Positions 1 to 23,085 of a stretch of 40,736 nucleotides of DNA are shown here, one piece after another. Within the stretch, counting starts at the first letter, position 1, and each line of letters begins with the position of its first letter. This stretch comes from a virus, in the UHGV virus genome UHGV-2023338. One strand, written 5' to 3'. The position numbers and the translations under genes were made by a program. The notes under the pieces are model-generated. The model saw nothing but the letters and a program-made list of their open reading frames with translations. It was not told the DNA's origin and did not search any database.

Positions 1-516
1 ATGAAATTTAAAAAATGTCTTCTGCCTGTGGCAATGTTAGCGTCATTCACTCTGGCAGGATGCCAGTCAAATGCTGACGATCATGCCGCCGATGTTTATC
101 AAACCGATCAACTGAATACCAAACAAGAAACTAAAACCGTTAATATTATTTCCATTCTTCCCGCAAAAGTTGCCGTAGACAACTCCCAAAATAAACGGAA
201 CGCACAAGCCTTCGGCGCGCTTATTGGCGCAGTCGCTGGCGGTGTTATCGGCCACAACGTCGGTTCTGGCAGCAATTCCGGAACGACGGCAGGGGCAGTT
301 GGCGGCGGAGCTGTAGGCGCGGCAGTGGGTTCTATGGTGAATGATAAAACCTTAGTGGAAGGTGTTTCTTTAACATATAAGGAAGGCACCAAAGTGTATA
401 CCTCTACCCAGGTGGGTAAAGAGTGCCAGTTTACGACAGGTTTAGCCGTTGTTATTACCACAACGTATAACGAAACGCGTATTCAGCCAAATACTAAATG
501 TCCTGAAAAGAGCTAA
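1..516 (+). CDS. Glycine-zipper outer-membrane lipoprotein (SlyB/YcfJ-like); probable host-flank gene
   Basis: Signal peptide with lipobox LAGC; Gly/Ala-rich stretch GALIGAVAGGVIGHNVGSG typical of glycine-zipper 17-kDa-antigen-type lipoproteins; opposite strand to adjacent phage lysis genes. Confidence 0.55.
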   Translation: MKFKKCLLPVAMLASFTLAGCQSNADDHAADVYQTDQLNTKQETKTVNIISILPAKVAVDNSQNKRNAQAFGALIGAVAGGVIGHNVGSGSNSGTTAGAVGGGAVGAAVGSMVNDKTLVEGVSLTYKEGTKVYTSTQVGKECQFTTGLAVVITTTYNETRIQPNTKCPEKS

Positions 517-531
517 TAATCAGGAGGAGTC

Positions 532-1071
532 ATGAAGAAAGTTTTTCTTTGCGCCATCTTGGCCTCCTTAAGCTATCCGGCTATCGCCTCATCATTGCAG
601 GATCAACTCTCTGCTGTAGCAGAAGCTGAACAGCAAGGTAAAAATGAAGAGCAAAGGCAGCATGACGAATGGGTCGCGGAGCGCAACAGGGAAATCCAGC
701 AAGAGAAGCAACGTCGCGCAAATGCCCAGGCCGCCGCTAACAAAAGAGCGGCAACGGCAGCGGCAAATAAGAAAGCTCGTCAGGATAAACTGGACGCCGA
801 AGCCTCTGCGGACAAAAAACGCGATCAAAGTTATGAAGATGAGCTACGCAGCTTAGAGATTCAGAAACAAAAACTGGCGCTGGCAAAAGAAGAAGCCCGC
901 GTTAAGCGAGAAAACGAATTTATCGATCAGGAACTGAAGCACAAAGCTGCGCAAACCGATGTGGTGCAATCTGAAGCTGACGCCAACAGAAATATGACTG
1001 AAGGCGGTCGCGATCTGATGAAAAGCGTGGGCAAAGCAGAAGAGAACAAATCGGACAGCTGGTTTAATTAA
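532..1071 (+). CDS. Secreted, highly charged coiled-coil protein of unknown function
   Basis: N-terminal signal peptide (MKKVFLCAILASLSYPAIA), K/E/R/A/Q-rich remainder; RBS AGGAGG 8 nt upstream; 16-nt spacing after previous gene. Confidence 0.5.
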   Translation: MKKVFLCAILASLSYPAIASSLQDQLSAVAEAEQQGKNEEQRQHDEWVAERNREIQQEKQRRANAQAAANKRAATAAANKKARQDKLDAEASADKKRDQSYEDELRSLEIQKQKLALAKEEARVKRENEFIDQELKHKAAQTDVVQSEADANRNMTEGGRDLMKSVGKAEENKSDSWFN

Positions 1072-1115
1072 TCGATGTTAGTAACTTCAAGCCTATGATT
1101 CTTGAAGATAAAAAA

Positions 1116-1144
1116 CCCTCTGTAGTAACAGAGGGTTTTGTTCA
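1116..1144. terminator. Rho-independent terminator (bidirectional candidate) between flank genes and phage lysis cassette
   Basis: AAAAA-CCCTCTG-tagtaa-CAGAGGG-TTTTGTT: 7-bp GC-rich stem flanked by A-run and T-run. Confidence 0.55.
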
Positions 1145-1257
1145 TTCATAGTGCAGGGATTAAAATCATTCCCACTCAATTATTTACGACAAACATAACC
1201 AATTGAGTGATAACAACTTTCTCATAACTTACTTCCACCGTACCGTTCTATATACCG

Positions 1258-1758
1258 TCACAGGTTAATGGTGCCCCGCTTTTTCAGTGCGTCATACTGC
1301 TGCTCACAGGACTCACCTGCAACCCTATATCGCTCAGCTTCTTCTGCTGTTGCGACGTAAGCTCGGTTGCTTTCTTCAAGCATGTCGGCGAGCACACTGA
1401 TGACCTTGCTGGCTGGCGTGCCAGTGGGGAAAGTTCCGGTATAGTGTTCGGCGATTCGCTTGATCTTGTCAAGTTCTGACTGCAGGCGGCCAGAAGAGGC
1501 AGCAGCAAAATCAGCATCAGCCCGCGCAGACTCAATACGGGATAGCGCATCACGTTCAATTTGTGTTTTCTCCTTATCTCGTTGTGCCCGGGCCTTATCA
1601 TCAGCCTGTTTCTGATCTGACTGCGCCTGCGCGTACCCGGCGTCATACTGCCGGTCACCATGGATATTCCAGGCAACAACGCAACTGATAACCAACGCAG
1701 CAAGCATCACGACAATAAGCAACTGTTTCCAGTATGCTTTCACGAATACCCAGATCAT
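1258..1758 (-). CDS. Rz-like i-spanin (inner-membrane spanin subunit)
   Basis: N-terminal TM helix followed by charged coiled-coil periplasmic domain; directly downstream of endolysin with ATGA overlap; contains embedded lipoprotein ORF. Confidence 0.6.
1284..1550 (-). CDS. Rz1-like o-spanin (outer-membrane lipoprotein) embedded in alternate frame of Rz
   Basis: Alternate-frame ORF entirely inside Rz; signal peptide [23 protein letters not shown] with lipobox LAAC, Pro/Ser-rich mature part; start chosen at internal Met of the 139-aa track ORF. Confidence 0.45.
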   Translation of the reverse strand: MRYPVLSLRGLMLILLLPLLAACSQNLTRSSESPNTIPELSPLARQPARSSVCSPTCLKKATELTSQQQKKLSDIGLQVSPVSSSMTH

Positions 1759-2381
1759 AAAAGCACCTTACTGGCGGTGATATACCGCGCGCGCCGGTCA
1801 TCGATGCCGTTCTGCCCACCATTAATGATCTGCGTGACGCGCACCATATCGCCGGTGTACTTCATACAGCCCTTGGTGGCGAAGAACCACGCCGCGCTGC
1901 GGGCCGCATATTCGTCCTGCGTCAACAGCTCAGGATTCTCCAGCAGGTCCACTTTTAGACCGTTTCCGCAGTCACGATAGTTATTCAAACCGGTAATCTG
2001 GATAAGCCCGCGCCCACGGTAAAACCAGCCGTCAGTCGGCCCGTTGTTCCCCATGCGCTTGCTATACACCAGATTGGCGATCGCACGCTGGCGCTCCAGC
2101 GGTAACGATGGCTCACCAGCACGACGGCCCAGCGCATTGGCCTGGCCCTGAGTGAGGCGCCCGGAACGGACGAATCCCGCCAGCCCGGTCACGCTGTAGT
2201 TGAAGTTCTCCTGCAGCCGGGTGAAGCCTCCAGACTCATGCCCGACCTGAGCAATAAACATTGCCTGATCTTCTGGTTTGCTGATACCAAACTCTTTCAT
2301 CGCAGAAGTTATATGCGAGAACCAGCGTGCGGCCAGCGCCTCGCTAATACCAGCAGCTCGCTGGAATTGTTTAATCTCCAT
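1755..2381 (-). CDS. Endolysin, glycoside hydrolase family 19 (chitinase-like) type
   Basis: Motifs [12 protein letters not shown] and [11 protein letters not shown] resemble GH19 catalytic core; sits between holin and spanin genes. Confidence 0.8.
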
Positions 2382-2679
2382 GTTTAGACCTCGTTATTTT
2401 GAAAATCTGAACGACGTTACCGCGAGTTTTAAGAACCGCAGCAAGCATGACAGCATTGATAATGACCTCAGATAAATCCACAGCCATTGGCGTGCGTAAC
2501 CAGATTGCATAGACGACACGAACAGGAATACTGGCCGCAGCAACAATAAGGAAATAAGCAAGCCACCCTCCCCACCTTCGATGTTGTGAACCGTTACGCC
2601 GGAATGTGACAACACGAATTGCTATGCCAGTACAAATAAGTGCATTGGTGATAAGCAAAACAAGCTCATTAGTTACCAT
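2371..2679 (-). CDS. Holin (three predicted TM segments)
   Basis: 102-aa protein with three hydrophobic helices and charged C-terminus, immediately upstream of endolysin (overlapping). Confidence 0.55.
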
Positions 2680-3079
2680 CGCCTTTTCTCCCCGGAATTA
2701 ACTCGCGTGGATTATCGGAACGGTGATAGAGCCAGATGCCAATTCGAACTGCAACGATTGCTGACACGAATGCACCAGCAGAGAAAACAATCCCTTTCTC
2801 GAAAGAGTCCTGCGTGATGGTAGGGATCAGGCTGGCTACGCCGATAAGGATGGATGCAGTTGGTTTGTAGAAGAGAAGGCCGCAGAGAAAGCTGAGCATC
2901 GACAGGAGAACCCGGCGGCGGATCGGGTATTCGACAGCCGAGGTAACAAAGATTACCGCGCCTGCCAAAGACCCCAACGCCACTTCTGGCGGGACACCAG
3001 CGATTACCGCAGCGAGCGAACCCATACTAAGCCACTGATTTAAAGACTCACTTGTTAGCCCGGCTGACATAATGACCAC
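2669..3079 (-). CDS. Holin-like multi-TM membrane protein (holin/antiholin partner candidate)
   Basis: 136-aa hydrophobic protein with 3-4 TM segments, first gene of lysis cassette, overlaps next gene. Confidence 0.5.
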   Translation of the reverse strand: MVIMSAGLTSESLNQWLSMGSLAAVIAGVPPEVALGSLAGAVIFVTSAVEYPIRRRVLLSMLSFLCGLLFYKPTASILIGVASLIPTITQDSFEKGIVFSAGAFVSAIVAVRIGIWLYHRSDNPRELIPGRKGDGN

Positions 3080-3160
3080 CGTTTACTGTGCATAAAGAAC
3101 CTCCTTAGTTGGTTCTCATATCATACACAATAAACCATATGTGTTTTAATTTGGTAACAA

Positions 3161-3200
3161 ATGAAAAAGCCCTTTAGTGAAAAACATTCATTAAAGGGCT
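3161..3200 (-). terminator. Candidate intrinsic terminator after tail-fibre gene (minus strand)
   Basis: GCCCTTTA (3170-3177) pairs with TAAAGGGC (3193-3200), followed on minus strand by TTTTTCATT. Confidence 0.4.
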
Positions 3201-3210
3201 AGATATTTAC

Positions 3211-5955
3211 TTAACCTTTAGAAAAAACAGACAGTAACGGAAGTGTAAAAGTCGACACACCAGTATTCATCATGCAGGTTTTACCACCTGAGTATCCAGA
3301 TATGGTTTGCGAAACTGGACTTCCTGTTGTTGGGAAAATGGTGATTTCATCCCCCCCCTTCAATACTCTAACTTTGCCTGTAACATCAACCGATGAACTT
3401 GAAACAGACGTGAGAGATCCATTGGTCATTGTATAAAAGTTTATAGTTCCTGTTGCTGTTCTGCTTACACCACATCCTGATTTTTGCTTCTGTTTATAGT
3501 TAAACAATACCAGCAGGCCAACAGGCATTGACTCAAGCTCAACTGCTGTAGACTGGTAGGTCTTACTGCCGTTTCTCATGTCAGGAGCCTCATCATCTGG
3601 ATCAGAAAAATTATACCCAAGAGTTAAATCATTAACCGTGGCATTATTCCCTGTTATTCCTTTGACTTGATTAACACTTAACGGTATGTAATTAAACCCT
3701 GCAAAAAGCGGTGTTAACTTTTCTCTAAATAAAAGGCCTGGTGGGTATACTAACGAAGGTGTACCATCATATGTCACTGAGATAATATTAAGTCCCTTTT
3801 TAAGGGTTCCAATGCACGTTGTTTGTTTGCCTGTAAATGATGTTAGCCCATTGCTGGCAACTTTACCTGATAGATAAGAAGAGTTCCTGATGTCATTGAG
3901 AATGACATTGAACTGGTTAACACGATCTGATGAAGTATAAGTTGGGTTATATGGCTCAAATAATGTTACAGAGATATCGCTTGTATCACTCCATACAAAA
4001 TACCGACAAATAACATTTTCATTTGAAGGCGTAATCCTTCCCCATCCACCAAGTGCATCAAGATAATCACCTCCACTTAATATCGAAATTGATGGGTAGT
4101 ATCTGGTATTTGAAGGGTATCCAATACCAATAAATGAAAGTTGCGTAGTAGGGATTAGGTTCTTATTTTTTACAGCTGTATAAACGCGCTCTTTTAATAC
4201 CTCTTTTGCAGCATAAGCACCGATGTATGCATGTCCTATCGTTGATGGATGGCTCTGGTCAAAGACAGTACCGCCGTCACGTTTGGCAACATCAGATATA
4301 GAGTACGCGCCTATATCTGCATAAGCGTCAGTCGTGGCAATGGACAAATCCAAAAACTCGACCTTTGGGAAAAGGCGTTCGATACGCTTCTTAATGGCTG
4401 ACTCCAGGAAAGCCTTTGGCGCATCGTTATTGTTTACAGTAACAAAGCATATCGGACAACCATATCCCCATGATTTTCTAATCAACTTTTCAAACTCATG
4501 AAAATACGCTTCAAATCCTATTGTTGGAAGTATTCCATTGTCATTAAAACCAAGGCTTATAAAAAGAACATCAGGAGCTTTTTTTCCATACGCAGCATTC
4601 TGGAAAAATCCATAGTCGAAGTTTTCATAACCCCAACCTGTCGCAAGTGACTTGCCAGACGATCCGCAGTTATATGCTTTAAAAATATTATCCGTGCTGT
4701 CGGATAGCATATTGAGGCAATCAGTAAAAATTCTGAACCATGAATGCTTACCGCCATTTAAATTATGATTGTAGTTGGTAGAGTTAAGATTTCCATCGCT
4801 ACCAGTCGGGTTCGGGGTCCATCCTGAACTATAGGCTCCATCCGTTATAGAATCACCAATGATACCTACATGGCAATCTTCTACAGTTGATGGGTAACCC
4901 TGCTTATTTGCAAATTTAGCAATTGTTCCAAGAGCAGTAAAATCAGGGCCATTGTTAGATAGCCCAACATCAAAAACATGCTCATTACCCCATTTGTCTC
5001 TTGTGAGAATTTTACCTTCTCCAAGAAATTTAGTCACATCATCTGACGGTAAAAAATTACACCTGATGGTTACATCTTTTGGGATGTAAATCTGACCAGG
5101 GAAAGCATAAATTGCACTTCTGTTGTCAGTTGTCGTGTTAATAACGACATTTGGAACATAAAATATTGACGTTGCGTCAGTTCTATATTGTCCGTTAACA
5201 AGCTCAGATCTGAGAACCGCATCCCCAACACCTCTCCAAGCGCCAGGACCAACACCACCAGTAGTGGTAGGAGTTGATCCTGGAGGAACTACTTTGGGCA
5301 GTGGCCCGTCCCATCTGTAGTATTCGCCGTTGCTTTCCCAGAGAAGAACATCGTTAAGATAGATGATGGTATTACCCAACTCAAAAGATTTCTTCGTGTT
5401 ATAGCCATACAATCCATTTTCTAAGGTTTCAATAATGGTGCTAAGTATGGTACTAAATTTTGCATAAAGATCATCAGTATATTTTTTTGTAGCAGCATCT
5501 TGGGGAAGAGATGGATCACGAAGATTTCTAATATAATTTGAAAGCGCGTCATAAAAAATTGCTACGTCATTTGGCTTTCTTAAAGCCAACTTATCATTTC
5601 TTAATGATTGTTGAATGAGCATAGTAAGTTTATCAAACGCATCCTCATGTACCTCAGCGAAGAACTTACCCTGATTACGTAAATCCGTTTCCTGAGTAGC
5701 TGGTAGTTCTCGTGATATAGATATCTGATGACCGTTAGCCAACGCCTTCGAGAGAATTACATTACCGCCGTTATATCCTCCAGCCCCGGTAACTGTGTAA
5801 TCAGTATCAAGAGCCAGCACAGCGATATTTTCGTCAAGGTCAACCACCTGTACTACCAGATCAGATTTATTGAAAACCCTAAAGGTGTACGGAAATGATG
5901 TCGTAACGCCGTTACCTGTGTATTCGTTGTGGTCAACTTCGGTTGAGACCGTCAT
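3211..5955 (-). CDS. Tail fibre/tailspike with central SGNH (GDSL-type) hydrolase motif; candidate receptor-deacetylating esterase
   Basis: 914 aa; conserved phage tail-fibre N-terminal anchor (YTGNGVTTSFPYTF); HVGIIGDSITDG matches GDS(L) block I of SGNH esterases; AT-rich relative to neighbours; last virion gene before lysis genes. Confidence 0.8.
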   Translation of the reverse strand: MTVSTEVDHNEYTGNGVTTSFPYTFRVFNKSDLVVQVVDLDENIAVLALDTDYTVTGAGGYNGGNVILSKALANGHQISISRELPATQETDLRNQGKFFAEVHEDAFDKLTMLIQQSLRNDKLALRKPNDVAIFYDALSNYIRNLRDPSLPQDAATKKYTDDLYAKFSTILSTIIETLENGLYGYNTKKSFELGNTIIYLNDVLLWESNGEYYRWDGPLPKVVPPGSTPTTTGGVGPGAWRGVGDAVLRSELVNGQYRTDATSIFYVPNVVINTTTDNRSAIYAFPGQIYIPKDVTIRCNFLPSDDVTKFLGEGKILTRDKWGNEHVFDVGLSNNGPDFTALGTIAKFANKQGYPSTVEDCHVGIIGDSITDGAYSSGWTPNPTGSDGNLNSTNYNHNLNGGKHSWFRIFTDCLNMLSDSTDNIFKAYNCGSSGKSLATGWGYENFDYGFFQNAAYGKKAPDVLFISLGFNDNGILPTIGFEAYFHEFEKLIRKSWGYGCPICFVTVNNNDAPKAFLESAIKKRIERLFPKVEFLDLSIATTDAYADIGAYSISDVAKRDGGTVFDQSHPSTIGHAYIGAYAAKEVLKERVYTAVKNKNLIPTTQLSFIGIGYPSNTRYYPSISILSGGDYLDALGGWGRITPSNENVICRYFVWSDTSDISVTLFEPYNPTYTSSDRVNQFNVILNDIRNSSYLSGKVASNGLTSFTGKQTTCIGTLKKGLNIISVTYDGTPSLVYPPGLLFREKLTPLFAGFNYIPLSVNQVKGITGNNATVNDLTLGYNFSDPDDEAPDMRNGSKTYQSTAVELESMPVGLLVLFNYKQKQKSGCGVSRTATGTINFYTMTNGSLTSVSSSSVDVTGKVRVLKGGDEITIFPTTGSPVSQTISGYSGGKTCMMNTGVSTFTLPLLSVFSKG

Positions 5956-6059
5956 GTTAAATCTCCAGATAGTCGCAGCACCCGTTGCGCCGCATATCTG
6001 GTTATTCTATTACCAGAAAAACCATATATGGATATATAGCTCATGAATACGAACAGATA

Positions 6060-6074
6060 TTACCTTTCAGGTGA
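6060..6074. promoter_or_regulatory. Operator-like palindrome TTACCTTTCAGGTGA (14/15 match to TTACC-N5-GGTAA)
   Basis: Read directly from sequence; about 40 bp upstream of LexA box. Confidence 0.35.
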
Positions 6075-6111
6075 TTCGCAAAACGTGCTGGATAGCAAAC
6101 AAATTATTTGC

Positions 6112-6130
6112 TACTGTATATTTATACAGT
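6112..6130 (+). promoter_or_regulatory. LexA (SOS) box
   Basis: TACTGTATATTTATACAGT = CTGT-N8-ACAG with AT-rich spacer, near-identical to E. coli LexA consensus TACTGTATATATATACAGTA; 21 bp upstream of ATG at 6151; -35-like TTGCTA at 6108-6113. Confidence 0.7.
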
Positions 6131-6150
6131 TATTGCTTGGAGAAGATAAG

Positions 6151-6408
6151 ATGCAGCAGTATCACTATCCACTGGAAGACGGATTTACCGAAAGGATTCA
6201 CACGCCGGGAGGCGTCAGGTCACTGGTGGAGGGATCGCACTTGATGAAATTACTCCGGGCTCTCGATAAGGATGGATTTAATGTCGATGGCCCACTTGCC
6301 GAACTGACTGCACTGATTAACTACGTCACCAGCTCACAGATGTCTATGCAGGATCTGCAAACACATCTCGACTATTGTGCCGAACAATTACGAAAACAAA
6401 TCAGGTAA
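6151..6408 (+). CDS. Hypothetical 85-aa protein, SOS-box-associated moron (candidate antirepressor)
   Basis: Internal Met of track ORF 6043-6408 preceded by GGAG RBS; only plus-strand gene inside minus-strand virion operon; function inferred from context only. Confidence 0.45.
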   Translation: MQQYHYPLEDGFTERIHTPGGVRSLVEGSHLMKLLRALDKDGFNVDGPLAELTALINYVTSSQMSMQDLQTHLDYCAEQLRKQIR

Positions 6409-6431
6409 ATTTAAGGGCCGCGAAAGCGGCC

Positions 6432-6445
6432 TGTGACATGTCACA
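6432..6445. repeat. Perfect 14-bp palindrome TGTGACATGTCACA (copy 1 of 3)
   Basis: Directly read; immediately preceded by hairpin GGGCCGC-GAAA-GCGGCC (6415-6431). Confidence 0.8.
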
Positions 6446-6451
6446 CTCAAG

Positions 6452-6592
6452 CTATGACAAACCTATGTACCCTGCTACACCAGATAATATCAAAACAACT
6501 GCTACAGCAAATTCACCGTCTTCAATGATACATTTACGATTCATAACGCCAAGGGCAACAAGCACAAATACAACAAGAATAAAAGCAATCAT
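6452..6592 (-). CDS. Small hydrophobic ORF (46 aa), possible membrane peptide
   Basis: Hand translation MIAFILVVFVLVALGVMNRKCIIEDGEFAVAVVLILSGVAGYIGLS; AAGGA RBS 6 nt upstream; not in track (under 60 aa); could be spurious. Confidence 0.25.
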   Translation of the reverse strand: MIAFILVVFVLVALGVMNRKCIIEDGEFAVAVVLILSGVAGYIGLS

Positions 6593-6601
6593 TTCTCATC
6601 C

Positions 6602-9076
6602 TTATTGCGGAGTGACATCCTGTGGTCGCCACCAGTATGTCTGGTTAAACTCTTTCTTCGAACGTTGCTCCATTTTACGCAAATAGCCTGGTGAAAAATA
6701 CTCCTGCATCTGGTTAAAGATCATGTGATCAAGAGCTGCCTTCAAGTACCAGAGATTCGCACCTGGCATCAGCCCTTTCCCAAGTTTCACCAGATCACCA
6801 CCAGTCTGCTCGTTCTTCCCTTCCACAGCATTTAATGGTATGCCCTGAGCTATCTTCACTACGTCATCAACCAGGCCAGCTACCGGGCCAAGCATCGACG
6901 CCAGCGCGCCGCTTCCGTATCTAGTGTGATCTGACAATAAAAAGTCACCGTAAAGGCCAAGACCACCACCTTTCAGTAGAGCACCAAGCCAAAATTTAGC
7001 AGCATCTTCTCCTGTCATCTCGCGAGGATTACGACCAGACGCAAGGTCGTTAAGTTGCTGCGACAAAGCGCCAAGAATGGTCGTACTAGCAATAAACGTC
7101 GCAATATATGCCGCACGCCCACCAGCAGACGGCATACCCATAGCGCGTGACCAGTGACGCATAACCACCGAGATAGGGAACGATTTAAACAGGAAAACAC
7201 TTCTCGTTAATTCACCTTTCCATGTTCCACGCTGAATACCAGAACCGGTTATCAGTTGCTCACGTGCTCCCGGTGTAATAACAGCCATATCAACTTCTTC
7301 AGTTACGGCACCGAGCAGTTTACGCATTGCCTCAAATTTCACGCGTTCAGGCTCACCAAGATGTTTAACTGCTGAATCAGGGATACGCATAATGCTTTCC
7401 GGTGTCAGCATCGTATTATTACCGTTCCCCCAGTCCTCCTGTTGCGCCAGCTTCCATACGCTCCAGTCTGTGTCAGTAATCCCTTTGCTTTTCAGAATAC
7501 GAAAATCAGAGTCATCGAGGCTACGAAGGTCTGGTGTCCGTGACACTACTTCTCCCAGGCTTCCCATCATGGTTACGCCATAGGCGCGCTTGTGCGCATC
7601 TGACCATGCTGTAAGCCCACTGGCACGCATTACCGCCGTTGCCGCCCAACGAGACACTGACGGCCCCATATTATCCATCGCCCAGCGGTTAACGCTGCCA
7701 AGTAGAGATTCCATCGCCAGACCAGCGCGTCGCGCCCGCGCAAGCTCAGTACGGTTCGTTGGGTCCATAGCTTCAAGCTGGTTGCGGAATAACTGGTTCA
7801 TTGGAAGGTTGGTCACCTTCGCAGACAGATACATGGTTCCAAGATCAGAGAACGATGACAGCAACGCGGATCCGAGTCTGCTGGCAACCAGCCAGTTGCG
7901 GATATTGTCAGACCATTGCGCGATGTGCGGATTCGCTACAGGCTGTGTCTTTCCGGAAATAAAGTTGTACAGATTCTCTGTGTTGTTCGCCAGCCGCTCG
8001 ACTTTACCGGTTTTACTCGGGTTAGCTGTTGCCGTTTCTGCCTTAACCTGATCAAGAAGTGAGCGGAAAACATGATCGGGGTTTGGACCATATGTTTCCA
8101 CCAGAGAAATATCTTTACTGATACCTTCCAGGTGACCGACCATGATTTCCCATAGAGAGCGATCGCCATAAAGTTGTTGATATTGGAGATAGGAATCTGC
8201 ATCTTTGAAATGTATCTGTCGTGATGCATTACCACGGTTAGCACGTGCGCCGGAAATTCGCATTCCGGTATCAGTAAGCTTATTCAGCCCACCAGTAGCG
8301 ATCGTGTTATAAGCCTCTCCAAGAAATGCAGACAACTCGGCATCGTTCATCAGTTGTCCATCGGATCGGGTATAATATTTGCGATCCAGCTTACCTATAA
8401 CATCGCTAACCCACTTATCCTTTGATACCGCCCCAACCTTTTCCATAGAATGATGTTGAGGGATCCCCCAGTTTTCGAGATAGCCAATGTCCCCACCAGC
8501 ATCATTAAACCGGCGGCGCAGCAGCTCTGTAACTTCTCTCCACGCCTTAGCACCTTTTCTTGCTTTAGCATTGCCAGTATTTTGCCCCCGCATTTCATAT
8601 ACCAGGTCACGTACGCCCGCTTCATCTTCAAACAGACCAAAAAAGCGAGGATCAACTGCTTCAAATGCCTCCTGCAATTGACTCAATGCATAATCACGAG
8701 TGGCTTTTGTTCTGGATTCAACAGAGAGGAAATTCGATTTACCGTCTGCATTAAAAGCAATAGTACGGTTAAGAGCGCCAAGTTTCCCATCAGCCCCTTG
8801 ATAGCTATTGATAAATTTATCCAATCTCTGACGTGCGGCTATAGTGAGAGCCACACGACGTTTCTTTAATGCCGCTTCTCGCTGTAATTCTTCAGATGCC
8901 AATTGTGCTGCACGATACAACCGTTCTGATTCGGAAAGTTGTCGCCACGACATCGGGTCATCACGAGCAATGGAGCGCATATTTCGATAAATGCGGTCTT
9001 CAATGTTCTGTATTTCTCGCGCCGTTAACGTGCGCTGCGCCGCCTGCTGGACCGCTTGTATACATTCCTGTCTCAT
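6602..9076 (-). CDS. Large internal virion/ejection protein (T7 gp16-position)
   Basis: 824 aa, last of a run of large structural genes before tail fibre; position-based assignment. Confidence 0.6.
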   Translation of the reverse strand: MRQECIQAVQQAAQRTLTAREIQNIEDRIYRNMRSIARDDPMSWRQLSESERLYRAAQLASEELQREAALKKRRVALTIAARQRLDKFINSYQGADGKLGALNRTIAFNADGKSNFLSVESRTKATRDYALSQLQEAFEAVDPRFFGLFEDEAGVRDLVYEMRGQNTGNAKARKGAKAWREVTELLRRRFNDAGGDIGYLENWGIPQHHSMEKVGAVSKDKWVSDVIGKLDRKYYTRSDGQLMNDAELSAFLGEAYNTIATGGLNKLTDTGMRISGARANRGNASRQIHFKDADSYLQYQQLYGDRSLWEIMVGHLEGISKDISLVETYGPNPDHVFRSLLDQVKAETATANPSKTGKVERLANNTENLYNFISGKTQPVANPHIAQWSDNIRNWLVASRLGSALLSSFSDLGTMYLSAKVTNLPMNQLFRNQLEAMDPTNRTELARARRAGLAMESLLGSVNRWAMDNMGPSVSRWAATAVMRASGLTAWSDAHKRAYGVTMMGSLGEVVSRTPDLRSLDDSDFRILKSKGITDTDWSVWKLAQQEDWGNGNNTMLTPESIMRIPDSAVKHLGEPERVKFEAMRKLLGAVTEEVDMAVITPGAREQLITGSGIQRGTWKGELTRSVFLFKSFPISVVMRHWSRAMGMPSAGGRAAYIATFIASTTILGALSQQLNDLASGRNPREMTGEDAAKFWLGALLKGGGLGLYGDFLLSDHTRYGSGALASMLGPVAGLVDDVVKIAQGIPLNAVEGKNEQTGGDLVKLGKGLMPGANLWYLKAALDHMIFNQMQEYFSPGYLRKMEQRSKKEFNQTYWWRPQDVTPQ

Positions 9077-9081
9077 TTAAT

Positions 9082-10884
9082 TTAACCTCTCAAGAAACAC
9101 GCCACAGCAACATCAAACAGGCTGGAATCCTGTATTGCCTGCTCACTTTCCCTGTTCGCTTCATCCAGTACTTCACGCGCACTGCGCGATTGTGGATTAC
9201 CATCATCATCCAGCACGGTGATTATCATGTCCGGAGATTCAAGCAGCGAGTCTTCAGCTATACGCAGATCAATATCTCCTGCCGGATCTGCCATCATTTT
9301 TTGTTCTGTCTGTTGCAATATCTTACCGGGCTCAAAAGGAGCTACTTCGTCTGGCGTCCTGACCTCTGCTGTTTTATAGAATGAAACAGCCTGAGCATTA
9401 AGTTCACTTTCTGCCTGCTGTCGTCGTGCCAGTTCTGCTCGAGCTTCAAAAAACTGACCGCCAGGCTCATGCGGTGCCAACGCGTTACGGGAAAATTCCA
9501 GGCGCTCTTGTGCCTGCCGGATTCGTTGGTCAATATCGCGAAGTCTGACCTGTTTATCTGATCGAGCACGAGACAAAGCTTTACCGCTACCGTTTGGCTC
9601 TTCTGCAAGAATTTGTGCGCGCTGTTCAGTGAGATTTTCAATAATTCGTTGGCTATTAGCGATTTCAGACTGGTAAACCTGTCTATCGCCACGCGGCAAA
9701 AGCTGCGCGGCCTGTTCTTCAAGCAACCGATTTTCTATAGCGCGCGCCGTTACTCCATCATCTACAGATGACAGAGCCTCATTAACTGCCTGAGACAGCA
9801 GACTCTTGCGCCCAGGAATTTCACTGAAAGATGCAGACTCAACAATGCTGGCAACGTCTACAGGTCTCCCCTCGCTAACATCAGACATAGCTTTTCTCAG
9901 AGCCTGAATGTGAGAATTGCGCGAAAGCACGTTGATCGGCACGCCGGGCGCAATATCAATTTCAGCATGATGAGCGGCATTCGCCGCCAGTGCAGCATCA
10001 ACATCAACTGGTGAAAAATTTGCTGCGTTTGTAGACTCGCCGCGAGAGTTAATAAATCTGCCGACACCACCAAACGCCACCCCAAGAACAGCATCAATAG
10101 CAATTGCCTGTCGATCCAACACATCATACTGGTTAGCCATTTCGCTATAGCCACCATCACGAAGCGTTTTTGCAGTAAGCCCACGCTGTGCCATACCGAA
10201 CGCAATATTTGTACCTGCGGCATAGGCAATATCTGGCGTTGCACGTACTGCTGTTGCTGCGGCGCGTCGCACTGAACTCTCACCCGTCCGCGCAAGCTGA
10301 GCCGCCACACCTTCCGCCAGCGCACCACCAGCACGTAACCCGAGGCTCATAGGGATCAGTGTTCCGGCACCAGCAGTAATGCCCTGCACTAATCCCGCTT
10401 CCTGCGCCGTCCTGAAATCAACACCCTGTGCTGTCAGCCGTTCAAACTCAGAAAAACCCTGTAGCGAAGTTACCGCCGCTGCACCTCCGACAGGACCACC
10501 GAGCGTTGTACCGACAACAGCCTGCCCGCCCATATCGAACAACCCATAAAGAACCTGCCCGGCGGTTCCGGTTGTCGCGGCATCAGGCGTCAGCTGCTTA
10601 ACCTGCTGCTCTGCTAGTTTTCTCTGCTCGGCAATGTATGAAACTGAAGTGTCATTGAGCGAGGTGTTTTCGTTAACAAACTGAGCAATCGGGGATACGA
10701 TTTTATCCATCCCTGCCCAGAGCAACTGATCTGGCTTTGCCACCAGCCCGGAGTACAAACCAGACAATGCCGCTCCTACAGCATTGTCGAAAAAACCAAC
10801 ATCGCTGTTAAAACCAGCTGGATTTGATGCTGCTTCGTCAAGCTGCTGATTCTGGTTTACTGGATTAAGGCCAAAGTAACTCAT
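9082..10884 (-). CDS. Internal virion protein, Gly/Ala-rich
   Basis: 600 aa; Gly/Ala-rich low-complexity N-terminal half; within structural operon. Confidence 0.55.
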   Translation of the reverse strand: MSYFGLNPVNQNQQLDEAASNPAGFNSDVGFFDNAVGAALSGLYSGLVAKPDQLLWAGMDKIVSPIAQFVNENTSLNDTSVSYIAEQRKLAEQQVKQLTPDAATTGTAGQVLYGLFDMGGQAVVGTTLGGPVGGAAAVTSLQGFSEFERLTAQGVDFRTAQEAGLVQGITAGAGTLIPMSLGLRAGGALAEGVAAQLARTGESSVRRAAATAVRATPDIAYAAGTNIAFGMAQRGLTAKTLRDGGYSEMANQYDVLDRQAIAIDAVLGVAFGGVGRFINSRGESTNAANFSPVDVDAALAANAAHHAEIDIAPGVPINVLSRNSHIQALRKAMSDVSEGRPVDVASIVESASFSEIPGRKSLLSQAVNEALSSVDDGVTARAIENRLLEEQAAQLLPRGDRQVYQSEIANSQRIIENLTEQRAQILAEEPNGSGKALSRARSDKQVRLRDIDQRIRQAQERLEFSRNALAPHEPGGQFFEARAELARRQQAESELNAQAVSFYKTAEVRTPDEVAPFEPGKILQQTEQKMMADPAGDIDLRIAEDSLLESPDMIITVLDDDGNPQSRSAREVLDEANRESEQAIQDSSLFDVAVACFLRG

Positions 10885-13394
10885 TGCGGAATATCTCCGG
10901 AGAATCTCTGACGCTTCTGTGTCAGATCAAGAACAACGGGAGAACCATCATCTTTTAGCAGATAACCAGTACCAAGTTTCACCAGGTACTGACTATCGCC
11001 GTAACTTTGCAAACCATACTGACCAGGCGGTGTTTTTATCCCTGTGCCAACAACTTGTTCATTCCAAGCCTGATTAACCTGCTTATCGAATTGCTCTGCA
11101 GACATTCCCCACGGCAAAAGAACATTCCCCATTCCGTTATAGTCATGCACGCCACCTGTAGCTACGTTAACAGCCTGTTTCCAGATATCATTGTCAATTT
11201 CGCCTGATACCACGCCTTTTTTCGCCATCACACCAGCGTAATAGTCCTTTGCGATCTCGTATGCCATTGATGCCCCCTGAGCATCACCAGCAAATGCATC
11301 CTTCACCATGTCAGAAAACTCAAGGCGAAGATCAGCATCTTTAGGCATCGGAATACCTTTCGCGTCATCAGTACCTTTACGAGCCGCCGCGCCAGCAAGA
11401 ATTGTCTGCGCAGCGGTTTCAGGAGACACGGAAACATCCGGATTAAACCAGTTTTTTTCTGCCAAAATACCACCTGGCTTATCCATCAGTATCCCGGCAA
11501 CGGCAGCAGATGGAGCGTTGGCACTGATCTGCTGTAGTGCTGACATATACACCTGCCCACCACCAGTGCTCTGCCTGATGGTATCGAGATATGCTGCCTG
11601 TTGGGAAACGGGCGCATCACGAAAGAAAACACCGATCTGATTGGCCTCGTCTTTGGAAAAGAACGTCAGTGGAGTGCCATATGACTTAGCAAGGTCACTG
11701 ACCTGAGCAGCACGCAAGGCAACGCTCTGTCCAAAGTTATCCTTATTGCTCATGTCGATAGGCTTTGCCTGTCCGGCGGCAAGAGAGAACTGTACAGGAT
11801 CAGCCTGTCGCTGCTTTATCACCTGACTTGCAGCCGACACAACGTTGTCATAAAGAGCGGCTCGTGCCGCATAACCCTCCCCTGTCTCACCAGTATCCGG
11901 GCGTAATTGCTCAACATATGCTGTAATGCTGCTTGTCGGCATGTTGCGGAAAGAGCCTATATACTGTCCGGCGATTTGCGTATTTCTGAACTCGGTATAT
12001 CGCAGGTTTCCTTCTCTGACTCCATAAGCTGCAATAAAATCAGCCTCACCAGGTGGGTTAGGAAATTCAACGCCACGCATATACGCAGCTGTCGCATCGC
12101 GAACCTGGCTGTCAATCATCGTTTTATATTCAGCCTGCTGCTGCCGACGCAGTTGATCCGCCTGTCGCATAAAACTTGCCTGCGCCTCAGAAGATGCCGC
12201 ATCGAATGCTGCATTACCGGTATAGCGTTTGGTGTTGGTTGGAATTGTTGATAAACCAAGTGCTGCACTGACACCAGCAGTTAACTGCTGATCACTGTAT
12301 GGCTGGCTACCGTTCTCATGATGGATAATGGCTGCACAAAGCGCCTTCAGGGTATCAGGATTAGATGCATCGAGAGGCTCATCAGCAGAAACGCCAAGTT
12401 GTTCGCACACTGCTTTGATATACGACATAGTGTCATTTTTATCAGTAGGCGGTGCCCAGCGATTAATTATCTCGCTGACGGTATCGATACCCTGCCGCTG
12501 ATACGACATCAGGTTACGCCCTAATGCACGAATCCCGTGCTCAGGTGTTTCGAATTTAGCAAATCGACCATCATCACCGGTCTGGCCTACCCACGGATTA
12601 GTTTTGCTGTATTCGAGATTTCCTGGGTTATTGTTGCGTATGCCACGGGCACGCTCGGAAGAGTCACTATCTGCTACAGCACGGCGAGCTCCAGCAGCAA
12701 TATCACTTAACTCGCCATTACTTTGGATGAATGCGGTCGCATTGTTTGCCGACCACTGGGACAATGCGGCATCAGCAACCTTCTCTTTAAACTCGATTTT
12801 CTTGGCCTGTATTTGCTCGTCGCTCCAGCCATGCGCAATGCCATAATCCTCAATTTGCTGGAAAGTTTGCTTATTAGCCAATACGTATGCGGCGTTGTCG
12901 CCATACAATGCTGCGGCATTTTTACCATTGTTCAGCAGCGTCGCCTGAAACTGGCCTTCTTCGTAGGCATTTATTTGCCCTATCTCGTGCCGCCCGGCCT
13001 GCATAGTGAACTGAATACGCTGCTGCTGCGCCTGCTGCATGAAAGCATTACGAGCCTGTTCATCCGGCAGCGACATAGCCAGTTGTTCGACCTGAGCATC
13101 AAACTGCTGCGTATACTCATGGCCTTTTCCAATAGCATTTTTCCCTTTCAGGTTAAGCAATCCTGTTTCAGGATTATTCAGCAGATCGCTGCTTATCTGA
13201 CTGAGGTTAAGAGATGCCTCCTGAGCCAGAGCGATATTGGCACGCTGTTTTGCCTGCCCCAAAACATCAATTGCCTCTGTCCCTGCCCGAACAAAAGCAT
13301 CACCAATACCTTGCTGAGAAAACGTCTGCAAGCCTGCTGACTGAACTCCACGACTCTCAACCTGACGTCCGGATACTGTTGGTACGACTGGCAT
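10881..13394 (-). CDS. Internal virion (core) protein (T7 gp15-position)
   Basis: Start trimmed to internal Met (MPVVPTVSGRQ) that abuts upstream gene; 837 aa; contains conserved-looking block GIRNNNPGNLEY. Confidence 0.6.
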   Translation of the reverse strand: MPVVPTVSGRQVESRGVQSAGLQTFSQQGIGDAFVRAGTEAIDVLGQAKQRANIALAQEASLNLSQISSDLLNNPETGLLNLKGKNAIGKGHEYTQQFDAQVEQLAMSLPDEQARNAFMQQAQQQRIQFTMQAGRHEIGQINAYEEGQFQATLLNNGKNAAALYGDNAAYVLANKQTFQQIEDYGIAHGWSDEQIQAKKIEFKEKVADAALSQWSANNATAFIQSNGELSDIAAGARRAVADSDSSERARGIRNNNPGNLEYSKTNPWVGQTGDDGRFAKFETPEHGIRALGRNLMSYQRQGIDTVSEIINRWAPPTDKNDTMSYIKAVCEQLGVSADEPLDASNPDTLKALCAAIIHHENGSQPYSDQQLTAGVSAALGLSTIPTNTKRYTGNAAFDAASSEAQASFMRQADQLRRQQQAEYKTMIDSQVRDATAAYMRGVEFPNPPGEADFIAAYGVREGNLRYTEFRNTQIAGQYIGSFRNMPTSSITAYVEQLRPDTGETGEGYAARAALYDNVVSAASQVIKQRQADPVQFSLAAGQAKPIDMSNKDNFGQSVALRAAQVSDLAKSYGTPLTFFSKDEANQIGVFFRDAPVSQQAAYLDTIRQSTGGGQVYMSALQQISANAPSAAVAGILMDKPGGILAEKNWFNPDVSVSPETAAQTILAGAAARKGTDDAKGIPMPKDADLRLEFSDMVKDAFAGDAQGASMAYEIAKDYYAGVMAKKGVVSGEIDNDIWKQAVNVATGGVHDYNGMGNVLLPWGMSAEQFDKQVNQAWNEQVVGTGIKTPPGQYGLQSYGDSQYLVKLGTGYLLKDDGSPVVLDLTQKRQRFSGDIPQ

Positions 13395-13939
13395 TATAAT
13401 CCTCCGGGTAATCTGGTTCCTGCTGCTGCCACGATTGGCGCAGGAGTGCTTTGAGTAAACGGACTCCACGTCCCACCAAACATCTGGTACGCACCGTATG
13501 CCTTCAGAGGCGCAGTGAGCAATGTTGTTGCTGCTCCCACATTCCCCTGTTTACGGGCTGAACTGGCTTCTGCTTTATAGTTGGCAGCCTGAACCTGATA
13601 ACCGTAAGCCTCGCGTTGCGCGTTATTCACCGTCGTCAGCGAATCAAGAGCGCCAAACTGAGCAGTGTCACCAAATATATCCAGCGCATTACCGGTAGAT
13701 AAATCAGCGCCGGTAGCCCCCATTGTCGCCGCCTGTGTACCAAGCCGCTGTCGAGTCTCTCTGCGCCGTTGCTCAGCTTCAGCGTTACCCCTGTTTATTG
13801 CATCATTTGCCTGAGCTGTGGCTATATCTGCGTTCGCTTCTGCAGCCGTCGAGGCATACTTTCCCTGTTGGTACTGGGTGTATGCCTGAATGCCACTCAT
13901 GGCGAGCATTGCGCCACCAGCAATAACCGGATCGCACAT
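13394..13939 (-). CDS. Internal virion protein (T7 gp14-position)
   Basis: 181 aa, Ala/Gln-rich; position between nozzle-like gene and core proteins. Confidence 0.45.
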   Translation of the reverse strand: MCDPVIAGGAMLAMSGIQAYTQYQQGKYASTAAEANADIATAQANDAINRGNAEAEQRRRETRQRLGTQAATMGATGADLSTGNALDIFGDTAQFGALDSLTTVNNAQREAYGYQVQAANYKAEASSARKQGNVGAATTLLTAPLKAYGAYQMFGGTWSPFTQSTPAPIVAAAGTRLPGGL

Positions 13940-14403
13940 TATTTTCTCTCCATGTGAAATCTGTGGAAATTAAGACCAAGTGCACCATAAGGCGCGGCTT
14001 CTTCAAGCCTGAATCCAAGCCAGTGCAGCCATGCTTTGGCAACATGGTTTCGCTCATCGACATAGTTTTCCAGGCGCGGATAAACTGCCAGCATCTGCTG
14101 CAATACAGGGCGGCAGTGGCGCAGAAATGTCTTCTGATATTTTTCAATACGGCTGGTCCCGACCAGCCAGGGCGTACCATTGCCACCGATCATTGACGCC
14201 GGAGATACGCCAAACATGGTTGCCAGTTCTCCGTTCGCGAACCCTGACCAGGCCATAGTCGCAGTGCGCAGACCAACACGCAGCGCATCTTCGGTAGTCA
14301 TCAGCGATACCGCATACAGTTCGTCAATATCAGCCTGACGAACATCCGGCAAAATCATCTGAAGATGCTCTTCGGTAGCGGGAATAATTTGAACGTCGAT
14401 CAT
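13939..14403 (-). CDS. Putative internal virion protein (T7 gp13-position)
   Basis: 154 aa; tightly packed (shared boundary nucleotides) in structural operon. Confidence 0.4.
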   Translation of the reverse strand: MIDVQIIPATEEHLQMILPDVRQADIDELYAVSLMTTEDALRVGLRTATMAWSGFANGELATMFGVSPASMIGGNGTPWLVGTSRIEKYQKTFLRHCRPVLQQMLAVYPRLENYVDERNHVAKAWLHWLGFRLEEAAPYGALGLNFHRFHMERK

Positions 14404-23008: not shown

Positions 23009-23085
23009 GTGGCATTAGCTCAGTTGGACAGAGCAACCGCCTTCTAAGCGGTTGGTCGCAGGTTCGAATCCTGCATGCCACGCCA
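23009..23085 (+). tRNA. tRNA-Arg (anticodon UCU), phage-encoded
   Basis: Cloverleaf folded by hand: acceptor GTGGCAT/ATGCCAC, D-arm GCTC/GAGC, anticodon stem ACCGC/GCGGT with loop CUUCUAA, T-arm GCAGG-TTCGAAT-CCTGC, encoded CCA. Confidence 0.9.

What the first reader, a model, noticed from the sequence alone, without database searches (positions are those of the whole stretch)
3211..5955. Tail fibre carries an SGNH/GDSL esterase motif, suggesting receptor deacetylation rather than glycan cleavage
Seen: conserved tail-fibre N-terminal anchor followed by HVGIIGDSITDG (GDS block with catalytic Ser) in a 914-aa AT-rich gene. Established: SGNH-domain tailspikes deacetylate O-antigen or capsule as the receptor-recognition step. 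Inference: host range is set by an O-acetylated surface polysaccharide; the AT-rich composition suggests the receptor-binding module was swapped in.
Basis: partly seen in the sequence, partly recalled or inferred. Interest (0 to 1): 0.5.

Follow-up and report, generated by a model that had tools for sequence, protein, structure and literature searches.

The report
G7C-type esterase tailspike in prophage
The gene is the single tailspike of a phiV10/epsilon15-like prophage of E. coli, and its receptor-binding part is a clear relative of the phage G7C gp63.1 tailspike, an enzyme reported to strip acetyl groups from the O-antigen instead of cutting it; this is a correct but ordinary finding.

Summary
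Window 3211-5955 (minus strand) is an intact 914-aa ORF with HVGIIGDSITDG at aa 362-373 and 40% GC, against 50% for the rest of the window.

The protein has two modules. Residues 1-~165 are an epsilon15/phiV10-type virion anchor. Residues 190-914 are homologous to phage G7C tailspike gp63.1 (PDB 4QNL, E 1e-103). An AlphaFold model of aa 256-914 (pLDDT 91.9) superposes on 4QNL with TM 0.87.

All four SGNH blocks are present and conserved in 56 homologues: Ser369, Gly434, Asn471, Asp566/His569. No beta-helix glycanase domain was found. Papers read here report that gp63.1 deacetylates the O-antigen without cutting it. So deacetylation is the best-supported mechanism, though it was inferred and not assayed.

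The module swap is real. The prophage backbone is about 97.6% identical to phiV10. Similarity stops at codon ~161 and resumes only before the holin genes. The inserted cassette also replaces phiV10's O-acetyltransferase gene.

AT-richness does not mark the swap, because the conserved anchor is equally AT-rich.

Proteins 96-100% identical are already in public databases, and some are named "SGNH/GDSL hydrolase family protein". This is a new member of a known kind and of low interest.

The parts
3211..5955 (-). Tailspike gene, 914 aa plus stop codon. It appears to be the only receptor-binding protein of the prophage.
   Evidence: ORF list. PHROG tail fibre/tail spike families. The exact protein sits in the same gene order on 13 public metagenome contigs. 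None of the four large neighbouring virion proteins scanned matches a tail-spike family.
5461..5955 (-). N-terminal virion anchor (aa 1-~165) of the epsilon15/phiV10 (Uetakevirus) type.
   Evidence: phrog_1640 and others match over aa 1-164. DNA similarity to phiV10 runs from window 6408 to 5472 at 87%. BLASTP to phiV10 gp25 covers aa 1-223 at 63%. PDB chain 28lx_A N-terminus matches at E 2e-25.
5221..5403 (-). Tail_spike_N domain (aa 185-245), a small domain shared with CBA120 TSP1, G7C gp66 and gp63.1. It lies between the two recombination junctions.
   Evidence: Pfam PF18668, E 5.5e-18. Residues 1-252 are 95% identical to E. coli prophage tailspikes that carry other catalytic heads, such as P0071.
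4966..5157 (-). G7C gp63.1 'domain 3' (aa 267-330).
   Evidence: Pfam PF21562, E 2.1e-31, above the curated cut-off. From aa 267 onward the protein is 87-94% identical to tailspikes with a P22-type anchor, P0009 and P0010.
4219..4866 (-). SGNH/GDSL esterase domain (aa ~364-579). Block I is G367-D368-S369 (4849-4857). Block II is G434 (4654-4656). Block III is G469-x-N471-D472 (N at 4543-4545). Block V is D566-x-x-H569 (4249-4260).
   Evidence: Residue alignment to 4qnl_A. G367, D368, S369, G469, N471, D472 and H569 are invariant in both alignments; D566 is invariant in 19 and >=90% conserved in 56 sequences; G434 is >=90% conserved in both. The model matches TesA and other GDSL structures at TMt 0.71-0.79. 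A domain profile aligns blocks I, III and V to GDSL proteins in the PDB. Codons were checked.
3727..4125 (-). Galactose-binding-domain-like module (aa 611-743), as in G7C gp63.1.
   Evidence: Pfam PF21988, E 1.6e-8, above the curated cut-off. It is included in the alignment to 4qnl_A.
3214..3723 (-). C-terminal beta-sandwich domain (aa 745-914). It has no detectable sequence similarity to G7C, but the overall fold match to 4QNL covers the whole fragment.
   Evidence: The model is all-beta here with pLDDT mostly >90. The Foldseek alignment to 4qnl has 708 columns and TMq 0.87 for the 659-aa fragment. This domain is 51% identical to that of Kagunavirus Schulenburg.
3150..5471 (-). Exchanged cassette relative to phiV10. 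It holds the tailspike from codon ~162 to the stop plus the downstream spacer. It replaces phiV10's tailspike head and its O-acetyltransferase gene oac.
   Evidence: Pairwise blastn between window and phiV10 shows similarity over 6408-5472, then none until 3149. phiV10 annotation places the tail fibre, then oac, then the membrane protein/holin.
3163..3200 (-). Terminator-like hairpin just after the tailspike stop codon: AGCCCTTTA, a 15-nt loop, TAAAGGGCT, then TTTTT on the minus strand. It lies inside the exchanged cassette.
   Evidence: Read directly from the intergenic sequence printed. The consensus scan did not report it because the loop exceeds its 8-nt limit.

Best explanation
The gene encodes the single tailspike of an apparently intact phiV10/epsilon15-like (Uetakevirus) temperate podovirus. 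The prophage sits next to yfgI/yfgH in an E. coli chromosome.

Residues 1-~165 fix the spike to the tail. Residues ~190-914 are a G7C gp63.1-type receptor-binding module made of the Tail_spike_N domain, 'domain 3', an SGNH esterase, a galactose-binding-like domain and a C-terminal beta-sandwich.

The shown parts are the domain architecture, the homology, the conservation of the SGNH blocks, the absence of a recognisable glycanase domain, and the mosaic origin of the gene.

The inferred mechanism, by analogy with gp63.1, is as follows. The spike binds an O-acetylated surface polysaccharide, most likely the O-antigen. Ser369 acts as nucleophile with the His569/Asp566 pair, and Gly434 and Asn471 form the oxyanion hole. 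The enzyme removes O-acetyl groups and leaves the glycan backbone intact. This step is needed for the virion to move through the polysaccharide layer and adsorb irreversibly.

Host range would then depend on both the O-unit structure and its acetylation state.
For: Sequence homology:
- phmmer against the PDB gives 4qnl_A (G7C gp63.1) at E 1.2e-103 over aa 190-744.
- tblastn gives 36.6% identity to G7C gp63.1 and 51% to Kagunavirus tail spikes.
- Pfam gives Gp63_3rd_G7C (2e-31), G7C_GBD (1.6e-8) and Tail_spike_N (5.5e-18), all above their cut-offs.

Structure:
- The AF2 model of aa 256-914 has pLDDT 91.9 and pTM 0.89.
- Foldseek finds 4qnl at E 2.3e-61 with TMq 0.87. It also finds TesA and other GDSL esterases at TMt 0.71-0.79.

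Active site:
- G367, D368, S369, G469, N471, D472 and H569 are invariant in both alignments. D566 is invariant in the 19-sequence set and >=90% conserved in the 56-sequence set. G434 is >=90% conserved in both.
- They line up with G7C S276, G345, N382, D470 and H473.

Literature read here:
- gp63.1 is reported to be a deacetylase that leaves the O-polysaccharide backbone intact and is essential for infection; hosts lacking O-acetylation are reported resistant (PMC10743462 citing Prokhorov 2017).
- Tail proteins of Pectobacterium phages Possum (SGNH domain homologous to G7C's) and PP99 deacetylate O-polysaccharide.
- Two SGNH receptor-binding proteins of Klebsiella prophages are reported as active esterases.

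Context:
- The backbone is 97.6% identical to phiV10, with integrase, lysis cassette and virion genes present.
- A 100% identical copy with the lysis cassette joined to the integrase gene, as in the phiV10 genome map, is present in another metagenome.
Against:
- The generic Pfam GDSL models score below their curated cut-offs (24.6 vs 32.9 bits; 21.2 vs 23.6). There is no NCBIfam hit.
- The putative specificity-determining parts (galactose-binding-like and C-terminal domains) are only weakly similar or not similar to G7C in sequence. The sugar and position deacetylated cannot be predicted.
- The window does not contain the host's O-antigen or capsule loci.
Confidence: 0.8

Rival explanations
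1. The same esterase tailspike acts on a different substrate. The target would be an O-acetylated capsule (K antigen), colanic acid, ECA or another exopolysaccharide rather than the O-antigen.
For: SGNH receptor-binding proteins of Klebsiella prophages are linked to capsule types. Nothing in the window identifies the host polysaccharide. The galactose-binding-like and C-terminal domains differ strongly from G7C.
Against: The closest characterised relatives act on O-polysaccharide: G7C gp63.1 and Possum gp66. Other characterised spikes on this anchor are O-antigen specific, such as phiV10 on O157.
Confidence: 0.15
2. The SGNH domain is a catalytically inactive binding module that only recognises the polysaccharide, with no deacetylation.
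For: The generic GDSL Pfam models fall below their gathering scores. Activity was not tested.
Against: All four catalytic and oxyanion blocks are present. They are invariant or nearly invariant across 56 homologues that are only 29-98% identical overall. This pattern is expected under selection for catalysis. In G7C the enzymatic activity is reported as essential for infection.
Confidence: 0.04
3. The spike is a glycan-cleaving tailspike with an accessory esterase, as the abstract on epsilon15 gp20 describes, so depolymerisation is the main activity.
For: A 2026 preprint listed describes the epsilon15 tailspike as having O-antigen binding sites plus a protruding esterase domain. The anchor here is of the epsilon15 type.
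Against: There is no beta-helix, pectate-lyase or other glycanase domain in Pfam. The secondary structure of the confident model shows none either. The whole region aa 256-914 superposes on gp63.1, which is reported to leave the backbone intact. Similarity to phiV10's spike ends at aa ~223.
Confidence: 0.02

Closest known systems
Escherichia phage G7C tailspike gp63.1 (PDB 4QNL; Prokhorov et al. 2017, as cited in PMC10743462)
   Same: It has the same order of domains from Tail_spike_N onward: domain 3, SGNH esterase, galactose-binding-like domain and C-terminal beta domain. Identity is 36.6% over aa 190-743. The model-to-structure TM score is 0.87. The catalytic residues line up (S276/S369, N382/N471, D470/D566, H473/H569).
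   Different: The N-terminus differs. gp63.1 is reported to form a branched fibre with gp66 on a virulent N4-like phage. Here the module is fused to an epsilon15/phiV10-type anchor on a temperate podovirus and is the only spike. The C-terminal 170 aa have no detectable sequence similarity, so specificity is probably different.
Tail spikes of Kagunavirus siphophages Schulenburg, Snoke, Sciku and Shashou
   Same: These are the closest isolated-phage relatives of the esterase module. Identity is 51% over aa 212-909, including the C-terminal domain. They are annotated as containing hydrolase and tail-spike domains.
   Different: They belong to a different virion type (siphovirus) with a different N-terminal attachment. 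They are uncharacterised biochemically as far as seen here.
phiV10 tail fibre gp25 plus Oac (Uetakevirus phiV10)
   Same: The phage backbone is the same (about 97.6% nt identity). The gene position and the N-terminal anchor are the same (87% nt identity over the first 484 nt).
   Different: phiV10's receptor-binding head is unrelated. In phiV10 it is followed by an O-acetyltransferase gene annotated as modifying the host O-antigen for superinfection immunity. Both are replaced here by the esterase head, and no O-antigen-modifying gene is present in the cassette.
Deacetylating tail proteins of Pectobacterium phages PP99 (gp55) and Possum (gp66), and SGNH receptor-binding proteins of Klebsiella prophages
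   Same: The functional class is the same: tail spikes or fibres that remove acetyl groups from surface polysaccharide rather than depolymerising it. Possum's relatives (the CB1/CB3/CB4/Nepra group) are 32-33% identical to the module.
   Different: The hosts, anchors and substrate polysaccharides differ. The Klebsiella examples are fibre-like and were linked to capsule types.
E. coli prophage tailspikes with the same esterase module on other anchors (P0009, P0010 with the P22-type PF09008; P0006 with the T7-type PF03906)
   Same: From aa 267 onward they are 87-94% identical for the P22-type examples, and P0006 is 68% identical overall.
   Different: They carry different virion-attachment domains. 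This shows the module moves between podovirus lineages.

Membership tests
SGNH/GDSL hydrolase superfamily | Block I GDS(x) motif with the nucleophilic Ser near the start of the domain | tested here: met
   G367-D368-S369 lies within HVGIIGDSITDG. It is invariant in 19 and in 56 aligned homologues. It aligns to the GDS of G7C gp63.1 and of PDB GDSL proteins.
SGNH/GDSL hydrolase superfamily | Block II conserved Gly (oxyanion hole) | tested here: inconclusive
   G434 in NCGSSGK is conserved in >=90% of homologues and aligns to G345 of gp63.1. It is assigned by position only; the model coordinates could not be inspected.
SGNH/GDSL hydrolase superfamily | Block III GxND with the oxyanion-hole Asn | tested here: met
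   G469, N471 and D472 are invariant. They align to the GxND of PDB GDSL proteins in the profile search.
SGNH/GDSL hydrolase superfamily | Block V DxxH (catalytic Asp and His) | tested here: met
   The motif is D566-Q-S-H569. H569 is invariant and D566 is conserved in >=90%. It aligns to the DxxHP of PDB GDSL proteins.
SGNH/GDSL hydrolase superfamily | Three-layer alpha/beta/alpha flavodoxin-like fold | tested here: met
   The model (pLDDT 91.9) matches E. coli TesA, 4rsh, 9otv and other GDSL structures at TMt 0.71-0.79 with probability 1.00.
SGNH/GDSL hydrolase superfamily | Score above the curated cut-off of the generic Pfam models PF13472/PF00657 (a practical criterion, not a biochemical one) | tested here: not met
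   Scores are 24.6 bits against a cut-off of 32.9, and 21.2 against 23.6. The family is a divergent branch with long insertions. Several close homologues do carry precomputed PF13472/PF00657 hits.
G7C gp63.1-type esterase tailspike | Domain set: gp63.1 domain 3 (PF21562), then SGNH esterase, then galactose-binding-like domain (PF21988) | tested here: met
   PF21562 scores E 2e-31 and PF21988 E 1.6e-8, both above their cut-offs. The SGNH region lies between them.
G7C gp63.1-type esterase tailspike | Overall fold equals the solved gp63.1 structure | tested here: met
   Foldseek to 4qnl gives E 2.3e-61, TMq 0.87, rmsd 3.6 over 708 columns.
G7C gp63.1-type esterase tailspike | Deacetylates the O-antigen without cleaving the backbone, and the activity is required for infection | not testable with these tools
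   Known for gp63.1 from the literature. It needs an enzyme assay, NMR and genetics for this protein.
G7C gp63.1-type esterase tailspike | Homotrimeric spike | not tested
   Only a monomer was modelled.
G7C gp63.1-type esterase tailspike | Branched tail fibre formed with gp66, as described for G7C (specific to Gamaleyavirus) | tested here: not met
   Similarity to gp63.1 starts at its residue 103. The N-terminus here is the epsilon15/phiV10 anchor. This concerns the mode of attachment, not the catalytic module.
Uetakevirus (epsilon15/phiV10) tailspike | Conserved N-terminal anchor and a gene position between the gp19-like gene and the holin/lysis genes | tested here: met
   Identity to phiV10 is 87% nt over the first 484 nt and the upstream gene. 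Gene order is the same. PHROG matches cover aa 1-164.
Uetakevirus (epsilon15/phiV10) tailspike | Receptor-binding head homologous to that of phiV10 gp25 | tested here: not met
   There is no similarity to phiV10 gp25 beyond aa ~223. No beta-helix domain was found. The head is the gp63.1-type esterase instead.

The most novel reading that the evidence does not exclude
The exchange removed phiV10's O-acetyltransferase gene, which that record annotates as acetylating the host O-antigen for superinfection immunity, and put an O-acetyl-esterase spike in its place. One reading is that esterase spikes in this prophage lineage are a counter-move. They would let the phage use, or strip, exactly the O-acetyl decorations that rival prophages add as a barrier. 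Acetylation-based exclusion would then become a receptor. A milder version is that an esterase alone, as the only spike of an epsilon15-like podovirus, is enough to carry the tail through the O-antigen layer. That would fit the 'processive deacetylation as motor' idea proposed in PMC10743462.
Probability: 0.1. Interest if true: 0.55.

Novelty: new member of a known kind. Interest (0 to 1): 0.22.

Why it matters
This is mainly an annotation result. It says this prophage's host range probably depends on the acetylation state of a surface polysaccharide and not only on its backbone. That matters for predicting phage susceptibility from serotype or O-locus alone.

It also gives a clean example of receptor-binding-module exchange. 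The same esterase head is found on epsilon15-type, P22-type, T7-type and siphovirus anchors. Here the exchange also replaced an O-antigen acetyltransferase gene.

It does not open a new question. Esterase tailspikes are experimentally established, and they have been reported as common in the receptor-binding proteins of Klebsiella prophages.

Tried and rejected
- **Generic family models.** The Pfam GDSL models alone would not have called the domain, since they fall below their cut-offs. NCBIfam gave nothing. The call rests on the G7C-specific Pfam domains, the PDB homology and the fold.
- **AT-richness as a marker of the swap.** Rejected. GC is 40.6% in the conserved anchor and 36-44% in the other segments of the gene. 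phiV10's own spike has 42.7% and its oac 30.9%. Low GC characterises this whole hypervariable locus.
- **O-antigen-modifying genes near the spike.** I looked for an acyltransferase or gtr-type gene. None was found among the neighbours scanned. The oac of phiV10 is absent.
- **Complete E. coli genomes carrying the esterase part.** I hoped to read host serotypes from them. None of 5426 genomes matched beyond the first ~480 nt at megablast sensitivity, so the host polysaccharide could not be inferred.
- **The 2026 epsilon15-tailspike preprint.** It is not held in the library. Only its title and abstract start were used.
- **Promoter and terminator scan.** It gave no more promoter-like sites than shuffled sequence. 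A long-loop hairpin after the stop codon was read by eye instead.
- **Catalytic-site geometry.** It could not be inspected, because model coordinates are not exposed to the scripting tool.
Full report
**Observation**

Window 3211..5955 holds a 914-aa ORF on the minus strand with an ATG start. The peptide HVGIIGDSITDG lies at residues 362-373, and the GDS triplet is encoded at 4849-4857. The gene has 40.1% GC, against 49.8% for the rest of the window.

**What the protein is**

Domain and family matches:
- Pfam finds three domains above their curated cut-offs. They are Tail_spike_N (aa 185-245, E 5.5e-18), 'G7C tail fiber protein domain 3' (aa 267-330, E 2.1e-31) and the podovirus tailspike galactose-binding-like domain (aa 611-743, E 1.6e-8).
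- Between the last two lie weak, sub-threshold matches to the generic GDSL lipase/acylhydrolase models (aa 364-579).
- PHROGs place aa 1-164 in many tail-protein families and aa 177-860 in a tail-fibre family.

Structural homology:
- Against the PDB sequences the best hit by far is 4qnl_A, the tailspike gp63.1 of phage G7C. The score is E 1.2e-103 over aa 190-744, and GIIGDSITDGA aligns residue for residue.
- An AlphaFold2 model of aa 256-914 was built from 56 homologues. It is confident, with mean pLDDT 91.9 and pTM 0.89.
- Foldseek finds 4QNL first, at E 2.3e-61 with TM 0.87 normalised to the query over 708 columns. The match therefore also covers the C-terminal 170 residues, which have no detectable sequence similarity to G7C.
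- The same search matches the esterase domain to classical SGNH enzymes such as E. coli TesA and other GDSL proteins, at TM 0.71-0.79 normalised to the target.

**Catalytic residues**

I aligned 19 sequences, including G7C gp63.1 and a Kagunavirus tail spike, and separately 56 sequences that are 29-98% identical to the query.
- G367, D368 and S369 (block I), G469, N471 and D472 (block III) and H569 (block V) are invariant in both alignments.
- D566 (block V) is invariant in the 19-sequence alignment and conserved in at least 90% of the 56.
- G434 (block II) is conserved in at least 90% of sequences in both.
- These residues correspond to S276, G345, N382, D470 and H473 of gp63.1.
- A profile of the esterase domain alone recovers 4QNL at E 1.5e-80. 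It weakly aligns blocks I, III and V to GDSL proteins in the PDB.

The protein passes it.

No beta-helix, lyase or other glycanase domain appears in Pfam or in the model's secondary structure.

**What is known about the family**

The papers read here report the following.
- gp63.1 is an esterase that deacetylates the O-antigen of E. coli 4s and leaves the backbone intact. The activity is essential for infection, and hosts lacking O-acetylation are resistant (PMC10743462 citing Prokhorov et al. 2017).
- Related tail proteins of Pectobacterium phages deacetylate O-polysaccharide: Possum gp66, whose SGNH domain is homologous to G7C's, and PP99 gp55.

The mechanism proposed for this gene is therefore inferred by homology. 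It is Ser369/His569/Asp566-catalysed removal of O-acetyl groups from an acetylated surface polysaccharide, most likely the O-antigen, as the receptor-recognition and penetration step. It fits everything that could be computed.

**Genomic context and origin of the module**

- The first 1.1 kb of the window is E. coli chromosome (yfgH, yfgI). It is followed by a prophage lysis cassette.
- The last ORF of the window is an integrase.
- Window 6000-30000 is about 97.6% identical to phiV10, O157 typing phages 9 and 10, PAS61 and other Uetakevirus genomes.
- Against phiV10, similarity runs through the upstream gene and the first 484 nt of the tailspike gene (window 6408-5472, 87%). It then disappears and resumes at window 3149, just before the membrane-protein/holin genes.
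- In phiV10 the corresponding interval holds the tail-fibre head and oac. That gene is annotated as an O-acetyltransferase that modifies the host O-antigen for superinfection immunity. Here the interval holds only the esterase head and a terminator-like hairpin.

At the protein level there are two junctions.
- Residues 1-252 are 95% identical to E. coli prophage spikes that carry other heads. These heads include different GDSL esterases, a sialate-O-acetylesterase-type domain and a pectate-lyase-type domain.
- Residues 267-914 are 87-94% identical to spikes with a P22-type head-binding domain.
- A T7-type-anchor version, siphovirus versions and Vibrio tail-collar versions also exist.

So the module was indeed swapped in. 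Base composition is not what shows it. The conserved anchor has 40.6% GC, like the rest of the gene. phiV10's own spike has 42.7% GC, its oac 30.9% and G7C gp63.1 43.4%.

**How common it is**

- The exact protein is on 13 public metagenome contigs.
- One of them is 100% identical to window 1-15955. Another joins the lysis cassette directly to the integrase gene, as in the phiV10 genome map, at 100% identity.
- Its 90%-identity cluster has 113 members from E. coli and E. albertii. Some are already named 'SGNH/GDSL hydrolase family protein' or 'tail fiber/spike domain-containing protein' by NCBI.
- None of 5426 complete E. coli genomes, and no isolated phage, carries the esterase part at megablast sensitivity. 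This particular allele is uncommon, but the kind is not.

**Rivals**

- A different acetylated substrate, such as capsule, colanic acid or ECA, cannot be excluded. The host loci are not in the window, and the specificity domains differ from G7C.
- An inactive, binding-only domain is unlikely given the invariance of the catalytic blocks.
- A depolymerase with an accessory esterase, as an abstract describes for epsilon15 itself, is contradicted by the absence of any beta-helix and by the full-length fold match to gp63.1.

**Verdict**

This is a new, uncharacterised member of the established class of G7C gp63.1-type deacetylating tailspikes, here on a temperate epsilon15/phiV10-like podovirus. 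Interest is low.

The only mildly novel angle is that the exchange replaced an O-acetyltransferase conversion gene with an O-acetyl esterase spike. That invites, but does not demonstrate, an arms-race reading.

Noticed in passing
window 1164-40736; L005 14793-14982: The prophage's left end maps to about window 1164. A metagenome contig from another sample (ERZ1741973, 79.6 kb, roughly twice the phage length) is 100% identical. It joins the lysis cassette directly to the integrase gene, as in the phiV10 genome map. This suggests excised, circular or concatemeric phage DNA, meaning an active phage.
   Followed up: partly
window 3150-3210 versus phiV10 (L003 5637-6653): phiV10 carries an O-acetyltransferase gene (oac, 30.9% GC) between the tailspike and the holin genes. 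This prophage has none, and the esterase cassette replaced it. None of the neighbouring ORFs scanned against Pfam or PHROGs looks like an O-antigen-modifying enzyme.
   Followed up: partly
window 6409-6415 versus phiV10 (L003 1523-2543): About 1 kb of phiV10 has no counterpart here. It holds the Bro-N antirepressor-like gene p23 and the small gene p22. The flanking segments abut in the window.
   Followed up: no
window 6043-6408 (+): A divergently oriented 121-aa ORF matches phrog_450 and is homologous to phiV10 gp24 and epsilon15 gp19. Its function is unknown, apart from a weak match to the C-terminal part of an anti-repressor PHROG (phrog_1760, E 2.5e-6). Other contigs call it at 85 aa, so the start codon is uncertain. 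This region is also below the window's average GC (42% over 6001-6300).
   Followed up: partly
window 23009-23085 (+): A tRNA-Arg (anticodon TCT) gene lies inside the prophage. It is also annotated in the related O157 typing phages 9 and 10.
   Followed up: no
window 1164-3149: The lysis cassette (two holin-like genes, a GH19 endolysin and a DUF2514 spanin-like gene) is only 79.5% identical to phiV10. The virion genes are about 97.6% identical. The cassette is about 91% identical to cassettes in other E. coli genomes at the same yfgI-adjacent site, so this is a second mosaic segment.
   Followed up: no
homologues P0071-P0079, P0083, P0098, P0105, P0106, P0097: Many E. coli prophage spikes share this protein's first ~252 residues (76-95% identity) but carry other heads. 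Several are different GDSL esterases or a sialate-O-acetylesterase-type domain (PF03629), and one has a pectate-lyase-type domain. Esterase heads seem frequent on this anchor in E. coli prophages.
   Followed up: partly
window 6416-6431 (-): A perfect GC-rich hairpin (GGCCGC-TTTC-GCGGCC) lies about 170 nt beyond the stop codon (6602) of the upstream virion-protein gene. It aligns with the interval of phiV10 that carries an annotated terminator. The tailspike gene may therefore be transcribed separately from the upstream virion genes.
   Followed up: no
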